Assembly (NCBI GenBank): GCA_938024995.1
Contig: CALJDU010000038.1
Span: forward strand, 43,509-107,508
Source of the DNA: an uncultured bacterium
Lineage (GTDB): Bacteria; Myxococcota_A; Polyangia; Polyangiales; Houyiibacteriaceae
DNA: 64,000 nt
Reading direction: 5' to 3'
Positions 2,519-8,555 of this stretch are shown here, piece by piece (within the stretch, counting starts at the first letter, position 1; each line of letters begins with the position of its first letter). The position numbers and the translations under genes are program-made. Under the pieces are notes generated by a model. It was not told the DNA's origin. It worked only from the letters and a program-made list of their open reading frames with translations, and did no database searches.

Positions 2519-3580
2519 CTATCGCGCGAGCCAGCGACGCGCGACGCGCGACGCGGGGATCGCGCCGCTGGGCGGGAGCGGCGCCGTAGACTTCGTCGAC
2601 CAAAAGAGCGCGGGTCCCGAGCGGCGACGCGCGAGAAACGAAGCCGCCGACTTCGCGCTGTAGGTCGGGTCGAGCTTGAGCGCGTGGTCCGCGAACCTCG
2701 CGATCGCGTTCGCTCCTTCGTCGGTCGCGTGTCCATAGCCCCGCCCGAGCTGACTTCCGTCAACGCGGAGACCACCCAGCGCTTCCCGATGCGAGAGGAC
2801 GAAGCGCGCGTCCCCGGTCTCTTCGCTCAGCCGTCGCGAGGTCTGCACGGCGAGACGCGCGATCCGAACCGCGCTCGTGACCGGCCACGGCGTGACGCGG
2901 ACCGCGACGACCCGAGGCGCGCGCGCGAGGATCCCGAGCCGCTCCGCGACCGCGAACCCTACGACGAGCCCCGCGCTGGTACAGGTCGAACCCACACCAA
3001 CGAACACGTGCGTGAACAGCGGAGCGTCGCCCCGCGCGATCTGATCGGCGACCTCGAGCCCCGCCGACACGTAACCCAGCGCGCCGAGCGGCGTCGCGCC
3101 TCCGGGCGGCATCAAGTACGTCCGCGGGGCCCGCGCGCTCCACATCCCGAGCGGGAGCGTCGACCAATGAAGGAGCGTTTTCGAGCGCGCGGCGGTCAAC
3201 CGAAAGTTCTGCTTCGCGCTCTCGCTCGTCGGCTGCGGGAAGAGCAAGGCGAGCGGCGTGAGGCCTGCTCTTGGCGCGTGCATCTGCGCGGCGAGCGCGT
3301 GATTGGATCCGTACGCGCCGGTCGAGACAATGATCTTGGCCTCGCGCGCGAGCGCTTCCGCGAAGAGCACCTCGAGCGTTCGAACCTTGTTCCCGCCATA
3401 GAGAGAAGACGACAGGTCGTCCCGCTTCACGTAGCCGTCCCCGTCGTTGATCGTGTCGAGCGATTCGATCGGGGTCGGAAACTCGCCTAATCCGAGGAAC
3501 GGGGCGCGCACCGGGAGCTGAAAGATCGCGCGCTCCTCGGTCAACACAGCGGGAGACTTCGCCACCCGCGCGGTCGTCAC
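2519..3580 (-). CDS. PLP-dependent ACC deaminase / D-cysteine desulfhydrase family enzyme
   Basis: PTPIE, VKRDDL..YGGNKVR, GAYGSNH, GVGSTCTSAGL and LDPTYSAK motifs; GTG start at 3580 overlaps the upstream stop (GTGA). Confidence 0.85.
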   Translation of the reverse strand: MTTARVAKSPAVLTEERAIFQLPVRAPFLGLGEFPTPIESLDTINDGDGYVKRDDLSSSLYGGNKVRTLEVLFAEALAREAKIIVSTGAYGSNHALAAQMHAPRAGLTPLALLFPQPTSESAKQNFRLTAARSKTLLHWSTLPLGMWSARAPRTYLMPPGGATPLGALGYVSAGLEVADQIARGDAPLFTHVFVGVGSTCTSAGLVVGFAVAERLGILARAPRVVAVRVTPWPVTSAVRIARLAVQTSRRLSEETGDARFVLSHREALGGLRVDGSQLGRGYGHATDEGANAIARFADHALKLDPTYSAKSAASFLARRRSGPALFWSTKSTAPLPPSGAIPASRVARRWLAR

Positions 3581-4365
3581 GCGAGCTTGCTCCTGAGCAA
3601 CTTCTTCAGGTTCGCCCGCTCCCACGCGAGCGCCCGTTCGTGCTCGGCGAAGACCGCTTCGAGCCGCCGAAACTCCTTCGTGTGAAAGCGGTGCCGCCCG
3701 TTGCTCACGGTCGCGGGCAAAACGTGGTGCAGCATCTCGTGGTAGACGACCGACGCGACGAAGTACTCGGGCACCCACTCTTGATCGAGCAGCGGGTGGA
3801 TGCGGATGAGCTTCTCGTCAGGGACGTAGGTCCCGAGCTGAATGGAGCGCTGACCACGACGCGGCGTCACGCGCCGCCCCCAGGTGATCTCCGCGGTGAC
3901 AAGCTCAACGAAGTACTCGGCCTCAAGGCGCTGAAAAATCGCGCGGAGATCGAAGTGCTTGCCTTGTGCGACCCGTGGCGTGGTTCGGCGCTCTTTGCGG
4001 ATGCTCTTTTTGTGGCGCGCGATGAAATCATCGAGCGTCTTCGACGCGACCCGAACGTGTCGATCGCGGAGATACGCGGCGAGCGCGACGAGCACGATCT
4101 CGTCGGCGTAGAGGAACATTCGATGCAAACGGAGCTCGAGCCTACCGACGGAACGCTTCGCGCTGATCATCGTGCGGCGATTATCTGTCAGCGTCACGAC
4201 GACCTCTTGCCCTAAGCGATCGCTGAGCGCTTCGGCGATGGCGAACTCATTGCTCGGCTCGTCGCGATCGGCGTTTCCCGCGAGAGGCTCAGGCGCGACC
4301 GAAGAGAGCGCCGCGAGATCGCGCCGCGCGGCGTCGAAATCGAAAGCGAGCTGGGGACGGTCCAC
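3577..4365 (-). CDS. SprT/M48-like zinc metallopeptidase domain protein
   Basis: IRIHPLLD...VVYHEMLH...HTKEFR (HExxH plus downstream His). Confidence 0.8.
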   Translation of the reverse strand: MDRPQLAFDFDAARRDLAALSSVAPEPLAGNADRDEPSNEFAIAEALSDRLGQEVVVTLTDNRRTMISAKRSVGRLELRLHRMFLYADEIVLVALAAYLRDRHVRVASKTLDDFIARHKKSIRKERRTTPRVAQGKHFDLRAIFQRLEAEYFVELVTAEITWGRRVTPRRGQRSIQLGTYVPDEKLIRIHPLLDQEWVPEYFVASVVYHEMLHHVLPATVSNGRHRFHTKEFRRLEAVFAEHERALAWERANLKKLLRSKLA

Positions 4366-4458: not shown

Positions 4459-6066
4459 TCAGGGTGAGTAGCCAAGCGCTTCACACGCTCGGTTTTGCCC
4501 GTTCTGAGGGAAGCGCCGCGCCAGCTCTCCGCAGGCCGAACGCGCGCGGCTCTCGTTGTTCGCGCCGCGCGCGCACTGCATCTCCCACATCAAGATCCGC
4601 GGCGTGCGACGAGCGCGCGGCATCCGGCGCGCTTCACGAAGACAACCCGCGTGATCTCCGTTGGAGAAGAGCTCACCGAGGGAAACGCTGGCCACGAACT
4701 CCTCTTGCTGCATGGCGGTCAACATCGGCGTGGCGGCGGACGGCGTGGCGGCGGGCGGCGTGGCGGCGGGCGTCATCGCGGAAGGCGGTGGGCTCCCGGA
4801 TGAGGTCATGCGGGACGACATGCCTCCTCGACGGGTTCGTCTCATGGGCGTGGGAGCGCCCGTCCTTGGCGAGTCGGGGGACGCTGCGGATGGCGGCTCA
4901 AGCACGAGGGCGGCGCTCTCAGCATCGTGGGTCTCAGCGTCGTCGGTCTCTGGCACTGGGTTCGCCTCGCGCATCGCGGTTTCGGACGGCACGGGATCCG
5001 CGCGTTCCAAGGCGCGCGTCTCGCCCGACTCGAGAACGGGTTCTGGCTTCTCGGCGATGTCTGGCCCCGCGCGTCCAAAGAAGATCAGCGCCGCGAGACC
5101 GAGCGCCGCGATCCCCATCAAGACGCCGAGGCCTGCCAAGAGCCATGCGCGGCCCGTCGAGTTCCGTTTCTGAGGGGCCCGTATGACGGAGTCGATCGCG
5201 GGCGCGGCTCGCGTCTCTGCCAACGCGATCTCAACAACATCGCTCGGGGCTTGGCTCGTGCGGGTGAGGCGCGCAGCGAACTCGCGCGCAGAGGGCGGTC
5301 GCGCGTCCGGATCCTTGGCGAGCGCGGAGAGAACCAACGCGTCGACATGCGGGCTCACTTCGGGTCGAACCGACGACGGCGCAGGCGCGGGATCGGTCAG
5401 CGCGCGCGCCATCATCGCCGTCGGCGTGGGCGCGGGAAACGGAACCGTGCCGGTGATCATTTCGAAGAAGAGCGCGCCCAAGGCGTACACGTCCGCGCGC
5501 TCGTCGAGGGGGAGCGCGCGCGCTTGTTCGGGCGCCATGTAGGCTGGCGTCCCGAGCGCCATTCCGGTCGCGGTGAGTCGAGTGAGGTCGGCGCGCAGCT
5601 TCGCGATCCCGAAATCGAGGAGCACCGGCCGAGTTCCCGCGCCCTCGCGACGCGCCATGAAGACGTTGCTCGGCTTGAGGTCGCGATGAAGAACGCCGCG
5701 CTCGTGCGCGTAGCTGACCGCGTCGCAGAGCTCAGCCATGATGCCGATCGCGACGTCAGGTTCCATGGGCCCGCGCGACAGCACCTCGTCGAGCGGTTCC
5801 CCCTCAAGGTGCTCCATGACGAGAAAGGGCGCGCCGCGTTCGTCCTCGTCGAAGTCGAGCACCGAGACAATGCCGACGTGGGCGAGCGAGGCGACCGTTT
5901 CGGCTTCTCGGCGAAAGCGCTCAACGAGATCCGGCGCGTCGCCGAGGAGCACCTTGATCGCACACACACGTCCGGTTCGCCGATGACGGCCGAGAAAAAC
6001 CTCGCCCATCCCACCGCGCCCGAGCATCTCGCCGGCCTCATATCGTTCGTGCGAAAACGCTGACAT
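4459..6066 (-). CDS. Membrane-anchored Ser/Thr protein kinase
   Basis: LGRGGMG, AIK, HRDLKPSN, DFG, GTPAYMAPE; one TM segment and a Pro/Ala-rich C-terminal region. Confidence 0.95.
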   Translation of the reverse strand: MSAFSHERYEAGEMLGRGGMGEVFLGRHRRTGRVCAIKVLLGDAPDLVERFRREAETVASLAHVGIVSVLDFDEDERGAPFLVMEHLEGEPLDEVLSRGPMEPDVAIGIMAELCDAVSYAHERGVLHRDLKPSNVFMARREGAGTRPVLLDFGIAKLRADLTRLTATGMALGTPAYMAPEQARALPLDERADVYALGALFFEMITGTVPFPAPTPTAMMARALTDPAPAPSSVRPEVSPHVDALVLSALAKDPDARPPSAREFAARLTRTSQAPSDVVEIALAETRAAPAIDSVIRAPQKRNSTGRAWLLAGLGVLMGIAALGLAALIFFGRAGPDIAEKPEPVLESGETRALERADPVPSETAMREANPVPETDDAETHDAESAALVLEPPSAASPDSPRTGAPTPMRRTRRGGMSSRMTSSGSPPPSAMTPAATPPAATPSAATPMLTAMQQEEFVASVSLGELFSNGDHAGCLREARRMPRARRTPRILMWEMQCARGANNESRARSACGELARRFPQNGQNRACEALGYSP

Positions 6067-6149
6067 CCCAACGAGAGTAAACGACGCCCGTTTGGGGGGT
6101 TGCCAATCGACGGTCGCGACCCACGATGAAAGAGTGTCGAAGGACGCTT

Positions 6150-6187
6150 AAAAGGGAGCTGGGCCGACGCAAACGCGCCGACCCAGC
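6150..6187 (-). terminator. Intrinsic terminator (minus strand)
   Basis: Minus strand GCTGGGTCGGCGC-GTTT-GCGTCGGCCCAGC-TCCCTTTT: 13-bp stem with two G-U pairs that only pair in this orientation, then a U-tract. Confidence 0.8.
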
Positions 6188-6508
6188 GACCGAATCGATG
6201 CTAGTCATGCGGGCTTGAGCTAGGGACTCGAGCCAGCGATCAAACCAAGGTCAACGAAACAACGAATCCTGGGCGGAACCGAGGAGTCGCAAGTTAAGGG
6301 GCTGCAAACACAGCCGAGTGAAGCAAGCGGAGAACAAGACGCGACTCTCAAGAGCCTGGCCCGAGGGCCATATGCGCCAATAAGTAAGCTCAAATCTGCA
6401 AGTTCAAGAACAAACCGGATGACCGATTTGTTGGGTTACTAAGCGAAGCAGAGTTTCAAGGCAAGGATGACGAGCACAAATGCCGGGCAGGGCAGTCAGC
6501 AACGTCAC
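6150..6508 (-). ncRNA. Putative ~360-nt sigma54-dependent structured ncRNA with repeated CUU motifs (no family recognised)
   Basis: Bounded by a sigma54 promoter and a terminator; no long ORF; multiple hairpins; low GC (56/120 in 6361-6480 by hand count); 15 CUU motifs. Confidence 0.65.
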
Positions 6509-6518
6509 CTAGAGGGTT

Positions 6519-6534
6519 TGCAACTCGGGTGCCA
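6519..6534 (-). promoter_or_regulatory. Sigma54 (RpoN) -24/-12 promoter
   Basis: Minus strand TGGCACCCGAGTTGCA = TGGCAC-N5-TTGCA with correct GG-N10-GC spacing; predicted +1 near 6508. Confidence 0.8.
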
Positions 6535-6562
6535 CTTTGTCAGCGAATCGTAAGCTCTTTCG

Positions 6563-6575
6563 TAAACCACTGAAA
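6563..6575 (-). promoter_or_regulatory. IHF-like binding site
   Basis: TTTCAGTGGTTTA vs consensus WATCARNNNNTTR (1 mismatch), about -55 to -67 from the predicted sigma54 start. Confidence 0.45.
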
Positions 6576-6788
6576 TGCTGTCGTTTTTCGCATTCGACGC
6601 GTGAGTCTGTGTTCTGGAGGTAGCTGACCAGGTCGACATGAGCGCCCCGTCGAGCCGGGATCCACGACATCCATGTCAGGGCACCGACCTCCGGATGACA
6701 GATCTCGTCGCATTGTCTCATCGGTCTTGCCGCCGCGGCTCTCGTTGGCGTCGCTTTCCACTCCGCTTTGAGGCAACGTTTGACGGCC

Positions 6789-7184
6789 ATGCCGCATCCA
6801 CCCCACCGATCGACGCTGTTTCTGGCGTTCGGAATCGCGATGTTGGCGGCATGCGGAACGCTTGGGGACGATCTCCGGCGCGCGCAGGCCAACTATGACG
6901 AGGCTCGCTATGAGAACGCCTCCGTCTGGCTGGACGTCATCACAGACCAAGAAGGACGCCTAAACGAAGCACAGCGCGCGCGGTTCTACTTTCTCCGAGG
7001 AATGACCGCCTATCGACTCGATCAGCGAGACGAAGCGTTCTACTTCCTGCGGCTCACACAGGCAGCTGCCGGCGAAAACGCGACAGGATTGACCGGTCCA
7101 CAGACGGAAGCGATGCGCCGCGCGTTGACCGACCTCACACCGACGACCGCGACACATCGCGCACGTCCGCCCGACGCGTTCTAG
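6789..7184 (+). CDS. Small TPR-like lipoprotein
   Basis: Signal peptide with lipobox LAAC; TPR-like RFYFLRGMTAYRLDQRDEA. Confidence 0.75.
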   Translation: MPHPPHRSTLFLAFGIAMLAACGTLGDDLRRAQANYDEARYENASVWLDVITDQEGRLNEAQRARFYFLRGMTAYRLDQRDEAFYFLRLTQAAAGENATGLTGPQTEAMRRALTDLTPTTATHRARPPDAF

Positions 7185-7226
7185 CGACGCCATCCACCTC
7201 GGTCGCGATCAGAACCCTTAAGTGAG

Positions 7227-7251
7227 AAAAGCGCCCTTTTGAGGCGCTCTT
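7227..7251 (-). terminator. Intrinsic terminator after the YdcH-like gene (possibly bidirectional)
   Basis: Minus strand AGCGCC-TCAAAAG-GGCGCT-TTT between convergent genes. Confidence 0.6.
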
Positions 7252-7265
7252 CGAGATTCAGCCGA

Positions 7266-7475
7266 TTAGGCCGGCGGAGGCTCACTGTCACGACGAGCTC
7301 GCTGTAGCTCGTCTTTCGTGTGGAGTTTCCGTTTCTTCAGCTCGGCCCGCTCGGTTTGTTCTTCAGACGTTAGGAACGTTCGAGAGTCGAGATTGGACAC
7401 TTGCTCTTTCAGAGCGGCGTGCTTCTTCTCAAGATGGTTGATCTGCTTCTCGATTTTGAGCGACGAGCGAGCCAT
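7266..7475 (-). CDS. YdcH/DUF465 family small coiled-coil protein
   Basis: LEKKHAALKEQV...LKKRKLHTKDEL pattern; GGAGG SD just upstream of ATG 7475. Confidence 0.8.
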   Translation of the reverse strand: MARSSLKIEKQINHLEKKHAALKEQVSNLDSRTFLTSEEQTERAELKKRKLHTKDELQRARRDSEPPPA

Positions 7476-7802
7476 GGCACCTCCCAAGCGGGATTTTGGA
7501 TGAGTTGTCAGTCTTGTCTAAGCCGGCGTTGAACGGGATCTAAGGTGGTCAGAGACCACGCGGAAATTTCCGCGCTTCGTTAATAATAGGGCAGATCGCC
7601 CTCTCTGATCAATCCCACGGCCCCAATTCACCTATTTTTTCAACAGGTTCGAGAGCGCGAGACACAGGCTAAGGTCTTATGAGACAATGCGCGCGCGCTA
7701 CGTTGGGAACCTTCCATCGTGGCGTTTTTGCGACATGAATAGACGACCCTCGCGGCGCGTTTCATATCTGTCGCCCGCTTGAGTGGGCCCTTCGGAGCAA
7801 TC

Positions 7803-8555
7803 ATGACCTCGCGCACTTTCCTGGCATCCCTAGCAGCGCTGCTCGTCGCAGTGAGCACCACGCTCGTCGCCTCAGCACAAAACGAGGGCGACAACGCGAC
7901 CTCCATGACCGGGCAACCTGCCGCGCCGCCGCCAACTCGCAACGCACGCGAGGTCGCCGCGCTCGTCCAGTCCTTTTACGACCAGACCACCTCGTTCCGC
8001 GCGAACTTCCATCAAACGCAGTTCACGAAGCTCTACAACCGTTACGAGCGCGCTCGTGGCGAGGTCGTGTTCAAGAAGCCCGGCAAGATGCGCTTCGACT
8101 ACGACCGTCCCAACGGACAGGTCTTCGTCAGCGATGGTGAGCGTCTCACGATCTATCAGCCGCCGGACGAGGGCGAGCAAAACGGTCAACTGATCGAGCG
8201 TGAGATCAGCGAAGACCAGCTCCCGCTCGCGTTCTCGTTTCTGACCGGGACCGGTCGGCTCGATCGTGACTTTCAGTTGCGGCTCCTCGACCCACAGCGC
8301 GAAGGATTCGAAGACGGTTACGTCCTTGAGCTGCGCCCGCGCGAAGCGACGCCGCAGTACGACCGCGTGGTCTTCTTTGTTCGCGTGGTCTCTCGTGGTG
8401 GCCGCAACGCTGGCGTCATCCAGCGCGTCCTCATCGTCGACTCGCAAGGGAACCGCAACCGCTTCGACTTCCGGAACATGCAGTTCAATCGCGACGTCGC
8501 GGACGACCGCTTCCGTTTCCGAGCGCCCGAAGGCTCGCGGCGCGTTAGGCCGTAA
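7803..8555 (+). CDS. lolA: Outer-membrane lipoprotein carrier LolA
   Basis: Signal peptide; FRANFHQ, GEVVFKKPGKMRFDY, FVSDG, DSQGNRNRFDF and F.F..PEG C-terminal motif. Confidence 0.85.
   Translation: MTSRTFLASLAALLVAVSTTLVASAQNEGDNATSMTGQPAAPPPTRNAREVAALVQSFYDQTTSFRANFHQTQFTKLYNRYERARGEVVFKKPGKMRFDYDRPNGQVFVSDGERLTIYQPPDEGEQNGQLIEREISEDQLPLAFSFLTGTGRLDRDFQLRLLDPQREGFEDGYVLELRPREATPQYDRVVFFVRVVSRGGRNAGVIQRVLIVDSQGNRNRFDFRNMQFNRDVADDRFRFRAPEGSRRVRP

What the first reader, a model, noticed from the sequence alone, without database searches (positions are those of the whole stretch)
6150..6534. Candidate undescribed sigma54-driven ~360-nt structured ncRNA (protein-sponge-like)
Seen: the gap between the kinase and the TPR lipoprotein has no credible CDS but carries a full minus-strand unit. 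It has a near-consensus sigma54 promoter TGGCACCCGAGTTGCA (6534-6519) and a 13-bp terminator plus U-tract (6187-6150). The predicted +1 (~6508) coincides with the first base of a stem (GGUGACG/CGUCAUC). The RNA between is a chain of hairpins: UGCC/GGCA, AACAAAUCGG-UCAU-CCGGUUUGUU, UGGCCC/GGGCCA, GAGUCGC/GCGACUC enclosing GGCUG/CAGCC, and GGCUCGAG/CUCAAGCC. G-U pairs favour the minus strand, and GC is far below the flanks (56/120 in 6361-6480). It lacks tmRNA, RNase P and SRP hallmarks and is about twice the size of 6S RNA. Known: Pseudomonas CrcZ is a sigma54/CbrB-driven ~400-nt sponge with repeated motifs, and Myxococcus Pxr is a shorter sigma54-type sRNA. Inference: this is a new regulatory RNA with CrcZ/CsrB-like logic in Polyangia-type myxobacteria.
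Basis: partly seen in the sequence, partly recalled or inferred. Interest (0 to 1): 0.88.

Follow-up and report, generated by a model that had tools for sequence, protein, structure and literature searches.

The report
Conserved sigma54-promoter non-coding RNA candidate
Upstream of a protein kinase gene in an uncultured marine myxobacterium-like genome lies a conserved, non-coding stretch with a perfect sigma54 promoter and a strong terminator, most likely making a roughly 355-base regulatory RNA, but nothing shows it acts as a protein sponge.

Summary
The minus strand carries an exact TGGCAC-N5-TTGCA sigma54 element at 6534-6519. It is the only one in the window, and 0 of 100 shuffles contain one. 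The hairpin at 6187-6158 (13 bp, then UCCCUUUU) is the longest terminator-like stem among 47 sites in bases 1-60000. No Rfam family matches and no ORF is credible.

New evidence comes from short contigs of relatives in three other metagenome runs. In X3 the kinase gene differs at 7-9% of sites, with 10 of 12 listed changes at third codon positions. The RNA stretch 6356-6482 has 2 substitutions in 127 nt.

Structure is only moderately supported. The whole RNA gives z = -3.6 to -4.0, against a minimum of -2.32 in 41 background windows. Without the terminator z is -2.0.

The sponge idea is unsupported: one GGA, no A-rich motifs, and a CUUG excess that fails multiple-testing correction.

Best reading (0.4): a sigma54-driven leader RNA with a leaky terminator upstream of the Ser/Thr kinase. 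A stand-alone sRNA is nearly as likely (0.3). Expression, rpoN presence and covariation could not be tested.

The parts
6519..6534 (-). Sigma54-type -24/-12 promoter element TGGCAC-CCGAG-TTGCA (GG at 6533-6532, GC at 6521-6520)
   Evidence: Read. It is the only exact match in the window, and 0 of 100 shuffles have one. X5 contig 6381-6531 reaches into it, but the positions of its 7 differences were not listed.
6467..6509 (-). Predicted transcript start (about 6509-6508, 12 nt after the -12 GC) and 5' stem-loop GUGACG...CGUCAU enclosing UGCC/GGCA
   Evidence: MFE and centroid folds. Pair probabilities 0.91 and 0.97. The start is inferred from promoter geometry only.
6375..6466 (-). Best conserved core: two U/C-rich stretches predicted single-stranded (6466-6433 and 6408-6375, each with a CUUG pair) flanking the perfect 10-bp hairpin AACAAAUCGG-UCAU-CCGGUUUGUU (6432-6409)
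   Evidence: Hairpin probability 0.98. X4 has 0 substitutions in 6375-6462 and one 1-nt insertion behind 6432. X3 has 2 substitutions in 6356-6482.
6338..6374 (-). Variable linker with two small hairpins (UGGCC/GGCCA 6370-6357, GGCUC/GAGUC 6356-6343)
   Evidence: Indels occur here in both X3 (6371, 6373) and X4 (6342-6355 loses 11 nt; +1 behind 6370).
6194..6337 (-). 3' domain with hairpins GGCUGU/GCAGCC (6315-6300), GCGA-UCCU-GGU.../...UCGU (6290-6262) and GGCU-GAGU/GCUC-AGCC (6234-6212)
   Evidence: In X4 the two substitutions in the stem 6315-6300 keep pairing (U.G to C-G, C-G to U.G), and an insertion falls at the 3' edge of the loop, next to the first stem base.
6150..6191 (-). Intrinsic-terminator-like hairpin (13 bp, 6187-6175/6170-6158, loop GUUU) with optional GG/CC extension, then UUUU (6153-6150)
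   Evidence: pair probability 1.00; local fold -28.7 kcal/mol. The 2 X3 changes listed inside the hairpin (6171, 6174) are both in the loop and none is in the stem. 3 of that contig's 10 differences were not listed.
6067..6149 (-). Poorly conserved spacer between terminator and kinase start codon
   Evidence: 5 of the 7 listed X3 differences of contig 6083-6264 fall in 6114-6142, and 2 of them break predicted spacer pairs. No sigma70-like site was found.
4459..6066 (-). Ser/Thr protein kinase gene (535 aa), co-oriented and immediately downstream
   Evidence: Pkinase PF00069, E 4e-44, residues 9-258. In X3, 10 of 12 listed differences are at third codon positions.

Best explanation
A sigma54-dependent transcription unit starts near 6508 on the minus strand. 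It makes a conserved, non-coding, moderately structured RNA of about 355 nt that ends at the hairpin/U4 terminator (6187-6150).

The unit sits directly upstream of, and co-oriented with, a Ser/Thr kinase gene. Only an 84-nt unconstrained spacer separates them, and no other recognisable promoter is present. I therefore read it as the kinase's long leader with a leaky intrinsic terminator. The short RNA would be the default product. Read-through would give the kinase mRNA, so an enhancer-binding-protein signal would control both.

Shown: the promoter consensus, the terminator hairpin, the absence of a CDS, and purifying selection on the stretch.

Inferred: use of sigma54, the start and end of the RNA, partial read-through, and any regulatory role of the leader.
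For: - Promoter: exact and unique, with 0 of 100 shuffles matching.
- Terminator: the longest stem of 47 terminator-like sites in 60 kb.
- Fold: the whole unit folds better than all 41 background windows. z is -3.97 or -3.58 against a minimum of -2.32. The minus strand folds better than the plus strand.
- Conservation in relatives from three other runs and studies. X3 has 2 substitutions in 127 nt at 6356-6482. Its kinase CDS pieces show 32 differences in 388 nt, and at least 10 of 68 third positions differ. Fisher P is 0.0066 and 0.00057 respectively. X4 has 0 substitutions in 6375-6462. X5 has 7 differences in 151 nt at 6381-6531, its most conserved piece.
- Terminator in X3: the 2 changes listed inside the hairpin are both in the loop and none is in the stem.
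- Not coding: indels in X4 and X3 disrupt the 57-aa and 34-aa ORFs. Substitutions in the 57-aa ORF show no third-position bias (4/2/5 by codon position, counted by hand). There is no Pfam hit. A search of 1.84 billion representative proteins gave no full-length relative.
- Leader reading: same strand as the kinase. X3 contig 6083-6264 bridges the RNA 3' end and the spacer. The spacer carries 5 of the 7 listed X3 differences. No sigma70-like site lies upstream of the kinase in 5900-7900.
Against: - No expression data exist. No listed run is RNA.
- rpoN and enhancer-binding proteins could not be checked. None is in the window and no genome is held.
- No enhancer-like palindrome was found upstream.
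- The hairpin chain without the terminator is only modestly better than chance (z -1.99).
- No specific antiterminator was found. The terminator's 5' arm can pair with the RNA 5' end at -21.8 kcal/mol. However, 14% of shuffles and 33% of random genomic 30-mers do as well.
- A 13-bp G+C-rich hairpin might terminate efficiently, which would favour a free-standing sRNA.
- The sigma70 scan finds promoters only at chance level in this genome. Its silence upstream of the kinase therefore means little.
- Conservation rests on short low-depth contigs (depth 2-3.4) that were laid only if at least 80% alike. Unconserved parts would be invisible, and 19 differences were not listed.
Confidence: 0.4

Rival explanations
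1. A free-standing, trans-acting sRNA gene. The roughly 355-nt RNA terminates efficiently at 6150. The kinase has its own unrecognised promoter. The conserved single-stranded stretches (6466-6433 and 6408-6375) pair with mRNAs or bind a protein elsewhere in the genome.
For: The unit has the classic layout of an orphan promoter plus a strong terminator in an intergenic region. The most conserved part is predicted single-stranded and flanks a perfect hairpin. Sigma54-driven sRNAs exist in Myxococcus: Pxr, from passages of PMC5568312. The terminator stem is intact in X3 at all listed positions.
Against: There is no expression evidence. No target could be sought without the genome. Duplex predictions against the start regions of five neighbouring genes (two candidate starts tried for the lipoprotein) were all weaker than the median of random segments. 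No second copy exists in the window. The 84-nt spacer, which would have to hold the kinase promoter, is the least conserved part.
Confidence: 0.3
2. A protein sponge in the manner of CrcZ or CsrB. Repeated short motifs on the RNA would titrate a global RNA-binding protein.
For: The size (about 355 nt) and the sigma54 promoter resemble CrcZ, whose promoters depend on CbrB and RpoN (abstract and passages of PMC5113210). CUUG occurs 9 times against 3.7 expected, single-motif P 0.004. Four copies sit in the two conserved single-stranded stretches.
Against: The RNA has 1 GGA, 0 ANGGA and 0 AANAANAA, and only 13% A. In shuffles the commonest 4-mer reaches 7.6 on average and 10 at the 95th percentile, so 9 is not significant. 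Hairpin loops share no motif. No Rfam CrcZ, CsrB or RsmZ match appears even at E up to 10.
Confidence: 0.05
3. Conserved regulatory DNA of the divergent kinase and lipoprotein genes. The conserved low-GC stretch would be bound by transcription factors. No discrete stable RNA with its own function would be made, and the hairpins would be incidental. The sigma54 site could be real or not.
For: Conservation alone cannot tell DNA sites from RNA function. The fold signal without the terminator is modest. No covariation could be tested.
Against: The conserved stretch lies downstream of the only promoter-like element and 285-390 bp from the lipoprotein start. The strand asymmetry points to a minus-strand RNA: z scores differ between strands, there are 19 G-U pairs, and the composition is U 31% against A 13%. 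The 13-bp hairpin with a variable loop in X3 fits an RNA structure.
Confidence: 0.15
4. A small protein gene is hidden in the gap: the 57-aa TTG ORF 6393-6220, or a leaderless 34-aa GTG ORF starting at 6508.
For: The ORFs exist. The neighbouring gap does hide a real small low-GC gene (DUF465). The GTG at 6508 coincides with the predicted start.
Against: X4 indels put the 57-aa frame out of phase between 6370 and 6305, and a +1 insertion behind 6432 shifts the 34-aa frame. Substitutions fall 4/2/5 on codon positions 1/2/3, against 1/1/10 in the kinase (and hand count). There is no Pfam hit. The 57-aa ORF's only hit among 1.84 billion representatives is a 19-residue match to a 633-aa repeat protein. 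The other ORFs in the gap were not searched there.
Confidence: 0.03

Closest known systems
Pxr sRNA of Myxococcus xanthus and relatives
   Same: A non-coding RNA in Myxococcota, apparently transcribed from its own sigma54 promoter, folding into several stem-loops including a terminator (passages of PMC5568312).
   Different: Pxr is 108 nt with three stem-loops. It always lies between the sigma54-dependent regulator nla19 and an NADH dehydrogenase gene. This RNA is about 355 nt and lies between a kinase and a lipoprotein. No enhancer-binding-protein gene is in the 64-kb window. No Rfam family matched. I did not verify that a Pxr model is in Rfam.
CrcZ/CrcY of Pseudomonas (Hfq/Crc sponge)
   Same: A sigma54 (RpoN)-dependent promoter and a long sRNA. 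CrcZ can also arise by processing of a longer read-through transcript (abstract and passages of PMC5113210). The length of about 400 nt is recalled, not seen in a call.
   Different: CrcZ acts through several A-rich motifs and sits next to cbrB. This RNA has no AANAANAA motif and 13% A, and no adjacent activator gene. No Rfam match.
CsrB/RsmZ-type CsrA sponges
   Same: A chain of hairpins on a several-hundred-nt RNA.
   Different: These RNAs are defined by many GGA motifs in loops (recalled; GGA binding by CsrA appears in the abstract listing of PMC4894983). This RNA has a single GGA and no ANGGA. No Rfam match.
Leader or attenuator RNAs that also give short terminated transcripts (for example riboswitch- or attenuator-derived sRNAs; recalled, not looked up here)
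   Same: The layout is promoter, long structured leader, intrinsic terminator, short spacer and co-oriented gene.
   Different: No known aptamer or leader family matches. No leader peptide is evident. No antiterminator pairing beyond chance was found. A sigma54 promoter in front of such a leader is unusual as far as I recall.

Membership tests
Generic intergenic sRNA gene | Own promoter | tested here: met
   Exact sigma54 consensus, unique in the window, 0 of 100 shuffles. Consensus only; activity was not tested.
Generic intergenic sRNA gene | Intrinsic terminator at the 3' end | tested here: met
   13-bp hairpin plus UCCCUUUU, the longest stem of 47 sites in 60 kb. The U-tract is short (4 U).
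Generic intergenic sRNA gene | No protein-coding potential | tested here: met
   Indels in relatives break the frames.
Generic intergenic sRNA gene | Sequence conserved beyond the neutral rate | tested here: met
   X3 has 2 substitutions in 127 nt, against at least 10 of 68 third codon positions in the kinase. Only close relatives and short contigs were available.
Generic intergenic sRNA gene | Structure supported by compensatory changes | tested here: inconclusive
   The only usable data were 11 substitutions in X4 and the 7 listed of 10 in X3 contig 6083-6264. There are two pair-preserving one-sided changes in stem 6315-6300 and loop-only changes in the terminator. There is also one stem mismatch (6360) and one helix lost by deletion.
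Generic intergenic sRNA gene | Transcript detected | not testable with these tools
   No RNA run holds the stretch.
CrcZ/CrcY | Several A-rich (AANAANAA-type) Hfq/Crc binding motifs | tested here: not met
   0 motifs and 13% A.
CrcZ/CrcY | Sigma54 promoter activated by the adjacent cbrB | tested here: not met
   A sigma54 consensus is present. No GAFTGA or Walker-A enhancer-binding-protein signature appears in any frame of the window.
CrcZ/CrcY, CsrB/RsmZ, 6S, tmRNA, RNase P, SRP and all other Rfam 15 families | Match to the family covariance model | tested here: not met
   0 matches at gathering score in the window. At E up to 10 in 5900-6800 the only match is Scr6106 at 20 bits, against a 52.5 cut-off, on the terminator hairpin.
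CsrB/RsmZ | Many GGA/ANGGA motifs in hairpin loops | tested here: not met
   1 GGA and 0 ANGGA.
Pxr | About 108 nt, three stem-loops, located downstream of nla19 | tested here: not met
   Size and neighbours differ.
Transcription attenuator / regulatory leader | Terminator between the promoter and a co-oriented start codon | tested here: met
   Promoter at 6534-6519, terminator at 6187-6150, ATG at 6066.
Transcription attenuator / regulatory leader | Mutually exclusive antiterminator structure | tested here: inconclusive
   In the nascent RNA the terminator's 5' arm pairs with r3-24 (P 0.8-1.0). The -21.8 kcal/mol duplex is matched by 14% of shuffles and 33% of random genomic 30-mers.
Transcription attenuator / regulatory leader | Downstream gene lacks its own promoter | tested here: inconclusive
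   No sigma70-like site was found and the spacer is poorly conserved. The scan performs at chance level in this genome.

The most novel reading that the evidence does not exclude
This is the first member of an undescribed family of long (about 355 nt) sigma54-dependent regulatory RNAs in uncultured marine Myxococcota. Two strongly conserved single-stranded CUUG-bearing arms flank a perfect 10-bp hairpin and form the active site, binding mRNAs or an RNA-binding protein. The leaky terminator couples an enhancer-binding-protein signal to expression of a Ser/Thr kinase.
Probability: 0.25. Interest if true: 0.6.

Novelty: new member of a known kind. Interest (0 to 1): 0.42.

Why it matters
Very few regulatory RNAs are known in Myxococcota. 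Pxr was the only myxobacterial sRNA that surfaced in my searches. The phylum relies heavily on sigma54 with enhancer-binding proteins and on Ser/Thr kinases (established knowledge, recalled).

A conserved sigma54-driven RNA placed in front of a kinase gene would link these two signalling layers through RNA. It would also give a concrete, testable locus in an uncultured marine lineage.

If it is only a long leader, it still documents an unusual arrangement: a sigma54 promoter followed by an attenuator-like terminator. The present evidence makes it a well-founded candidate, not a demonstrated RNA.

Tried and rejected
- Relatives by protein. A genome-contig scan with the LolA-like neighbour gave 21 loci at 24-52% identity. 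All were alphaproteobacterial or 'Pseudomonadota' records.
- Relatives by DNA. A metagenome-contig scan with the 10-bp hairpin pattern gave 6 loci. blastn showed that nothing beyond the 24-36-nt palindrome matches, so these are chance hits.
- Whole-genome route. No genome is held for the window. 'of' does not take a taxon name. The only handles reachable were the genomes. A 31-genome sample of the phylum of one of them gave LolA matches at 22-34% identity only. No Myxococcota genome could be searched.
- Plasmid collection, blastn 'distant': no match.
- Second copy in the window: none. The best other hit is 25 nt, E 0.35. The 12-13-nt words shared with the gap 7185-7778 lie inside a DUF465 gene and are not collinear.
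- RNA holders: 'no RNA holder listed'. Parts of the stretch without contig cover in X3-X5 say nothing.
- Sponge motifs: not significant.
- Enhancer-like palindrome upstream of the promoter: only a 9-nt overlapping palindrome at 6629-6640.
- Enhancer-binding protein or RpoN signatures in the window: none.
- Antiterminator: not beyond chance.
- Target prediction by duplexfold against the start regions of five neighbouring genes (six candidate starts): all ranked in the weaker half of 400 random segments. The method also allows unrealistically large loops.
- Literature searches. These found no description of a comparable RNA, but they were not exhaustive. Supplementary files were not consulted.
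- The listing of cluster members could not be made because the shared database is switched off. I did not try search for homologous proteins.
Full report
CONTEXT

The window is a contig of a marine metagenome organism. The best DNA holders are two marine-metagenome runs of one study, and no RNA run is listed. No whole genome is held.

Genes around the finding:
- An SprT-like gene at 3577-4365 (-).
- A Ser/Thr kinase at 4459-6066 (-), Pkinase E 4e-44.
- A 700-bp gap at 6067-6767.
- A 138-aa lipoprotein at 6768-7184 (+).
- A LolA-like gene at 7779-8555 (+).

The lipoprotein's nearest ESM-Atlas clusters are commonest in Myxococcota. That is the only support here for the taxon, and it is weak.

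THE OBSERVATION

All listed features are in the sequence.

Promoter. The sigma54 element TGGCAC-CCGAG-TTGCA at 6534-6519 (-) is an exact consensus. It is the only one in 64 kb, and 0 of 100 shuffles contain one. One-mismatch versions of the shorter pattern occur at chance level: 3 seen, 2.77 expected.

Terminator. The hairpin at 6187-6158 has 13 bp (10 G-C), loop GUUU and tail UCCCUUUU. It has the longest stem of the 47 terminator-like sites in 1-60000. The next longest has 10 bp with 5 G-C. Site numbers overall are near the shuffle expectation, so this genome does not visibly rely on such terminators.

Hairpins. The exception is the long-range GAGUCGC/GCGACUC helix. It is not predicted, and its 5' arm is mostly deleted in relative X4.

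Composition. GC is 56/120 in 6361-6480. The RNA strand is A 13%, C 30%, G 25%, U 31%.

IS THE FOLDING MORE THAN CHANCE?

- The 359-nt minus-strand RNA has z = -3.97, or -3.58 in my own run.
- 41 other 359-nt windows of the contig give mean -0.02, sd 1.03 and minimum -2.32.
- The plus strand gives -2.32.
- Much of the signal is the terminator. Without it (6192-6508), the minus strand gives -1.99 (1 of 100 shuffles as good) and the plus strand -0.91.
- The 'chain of hairpins' is therefore real but only moderately unusual. The strand preference for minus is consistent, and there are 19 G-U pairs in the MFE by my hand sum of the counts.

CODING POTENTIAL

The gap contains only short ORFs.
- No Pfam family hits the 57-, 136-, 34- or 56-aa ORFs.
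- The 57-aa ORF has one hit among 1.84 billion representative proteins. It is a 19-residue match repeated in a 633-aa repeat protein, E 2e-5, and is not a relative.
- In relative X4 the 57-aa frame is thrown out of phase between 6370 and 6305 (+1, -11, +1). The 34-aa frame is shifted by a +1 insertion behind 6432.
- X4's 11 substitutions fall 4/2/5 on codon positions 1/2/3 (hand count). The kinase in X3 shows 1/1/10.

The stretch is non-coding.

RELATIVES

The two large DNA scans failed to give homologues. No Myxococcota genome could be reached.

Contigs of three other metagenome runs from three other studies do contain close relatives of the stretch.

- X3. The kinase CDS pieces differ at 13 of 184 and 19 of 204 positions. 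10 of the 12 listed differences are at third codon positions (binomial P 0.0005). This shows a genuine diverged orthologue with at least 15% change at third positions. In contrast, 6356-6482 has 2 substitutions in 127 nt plus a 3-nt deletion. Fisher P is 0.00057 against third positions and 0.0066 against the whole CDS pieces.
- X3 contig 6083-6264 has 10 differences, of which 7 were listed. Five of those lie in the spacer 6114-6142, two lie in the terminator loop (6171, 6174), and none lies in the terminator stem.
- X4 contig 6191-6462 has no substitution in 6375-6462. Its 11 substitutions and most of its indels lie between 6273 and 6374.
- X5 has 7 differences in 151 nt at 6381-6531, the most conserved of its pieces (the others are 5.3-12.7%).

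Caveats. The contigs are 151-264 nt long at depth 2-3.4. Only pieces at least 80% alike are laid, and 19 differences were not listed. Unconserved parts are therefore invisible, and the promoter's state in relatives is unknown.

Even so, a 127-nt stretch with 2 changes against at least 15% third-position divergence cannot be neutral (Poisson P about 1e-6).

Structure-specific evidence is thin:
- Stem 6315-6300 takes two pair-preserving changes and an insertion at the edge of its loop.
- The terminator changes only in its loop.
- 6360 creates a C-A mismatch in stem 6370-6357.
- The small hairpin 6356-6343 is largely deleted in X4.

The pattern is two conserved domains (6482-6375 and about 6337-6158) joined by a variable linker and followed by an unconstrained spacer.

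WHAT IT IS NOT

- No Rfam 15 family matches at gathering score. At E up to 10 the only match is a 20-bit hit of a Streptomyces sRNA model on the terminator hairpin.
- The sponge reading fails its tests: 1 GGA, no ANGGA, no AANAANAA.
- CUUG occurs 9 times against 3.7 expected. In shuffles the commonest 4-mer reaches 7.6 on average and 10 at the 95th percentile.
- The locus is not Pxr-like in size or in neighbours (passages of PMC5568312). It has no activator gene beside it, unlike crcZ (abstract and passages of PMC5113210).

LEADER OR FREE-STANDING sRNA?

For a leader:
- The unit has the same orientation as the kinase.
- Only 84 nt separate the U-tract from the ATG.
- That spacer is the least conserved part, and its predicted pairs are broken in X3. 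A conserved kinase promoter there is therefore unlikely.
- No sigma70-like site lies upstream of the kinase. This scan is at chance level genome-wide.
- The U-tract is short, which suggests incomplete termination.

For a free-standing sRNA:
- The terminator hairpin is very stable (-28.7 kcal/mol).
- No specific antiterminator exists. The 5' end can pair with the terminator's 5' arm, but no better than 14% of shuffles.

I therefore put 0.40 on a sigma54-driven leader with a leaky terminator, which also yields the short RNA. I put 0.30 on a stand-alone trans-acting sRNA, 0.05 on the sponge version, 0.15 on conserved regulatory DNA without a functional discrete RNA, and 0.03 on a small protein. 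The remaining 0.07 covers readings not listed, such as chance.

Shown: the consensus promoter, the hairpin, the lack of a CDS, and sequence constraint.

Inferred: sigma54 use, the RNA ends, read-through and function.

NOVELTY AND VERDICT

If real, this is a new RNA family of a known kind: a sigma54-dependent sRNA or structured leader. It sits in an uncultured marine Myxococcota-like lineage. It is a solid candidate with unexpectedly good conservation support. It lacks expression data, covariation and a mechanism, and its headline 'sponge' analogy is not supported. Interest 0.42.

Noticed in passing
window 7266-7475 (-), with flanks 7185-7778: The second low-GC 'gap' holds a 69-aa DUF465 gene (PF04325, E 1.9e-7). 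It has a GGGAGG ribosome-binding site, two sigma70-like sites upstream (7612-7583 and 7520-7493) and a terminator-like hairpin near 7243-7222. The region is conserved in X3 (7 differences in 196 nt) and X5.
   Followed up: partly
window 6714-6746: Relative X3 lacks these 33 nt, with one other letter in their place. The deletion is upstream of the lipoprotein start, so this side of the gap tolerates indels.
   Followed up: no
window 6244-6229 and 6194-6179 (-): The 5' arms of the last two hairpins form a 16-nt direct repeat (81% identical, 50 nt apart). This suggests a local duplication of a hairpin module.
   Followed up: no
window 6077-6068 (-) and 6739-6748 (+): The same 10-mer, CTCTCGTTGG, lies just upstream of the kinase start and about 20 nt upstream of the lipoprotein start. 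By my rough estimate, about 3 such 10-mer coincidences are expected by chance in 1.8 kb.
   Followed up: no
window 4459-5100 (-), kinase residues about 320-535: Beyond its kinase domain, the protein has a likely membrane segment and a Pro/Ala/Ser/Thr-rich C-terminal half with no Pfam domain.
   Followed up: no
window 1-60000: Sigma70-like promoter sites (3) and terminator-like sites (47) occur at about the shuffle expectation. E. coli-type consensus scans are close to uninformative in this genome.
   Followed up: partly
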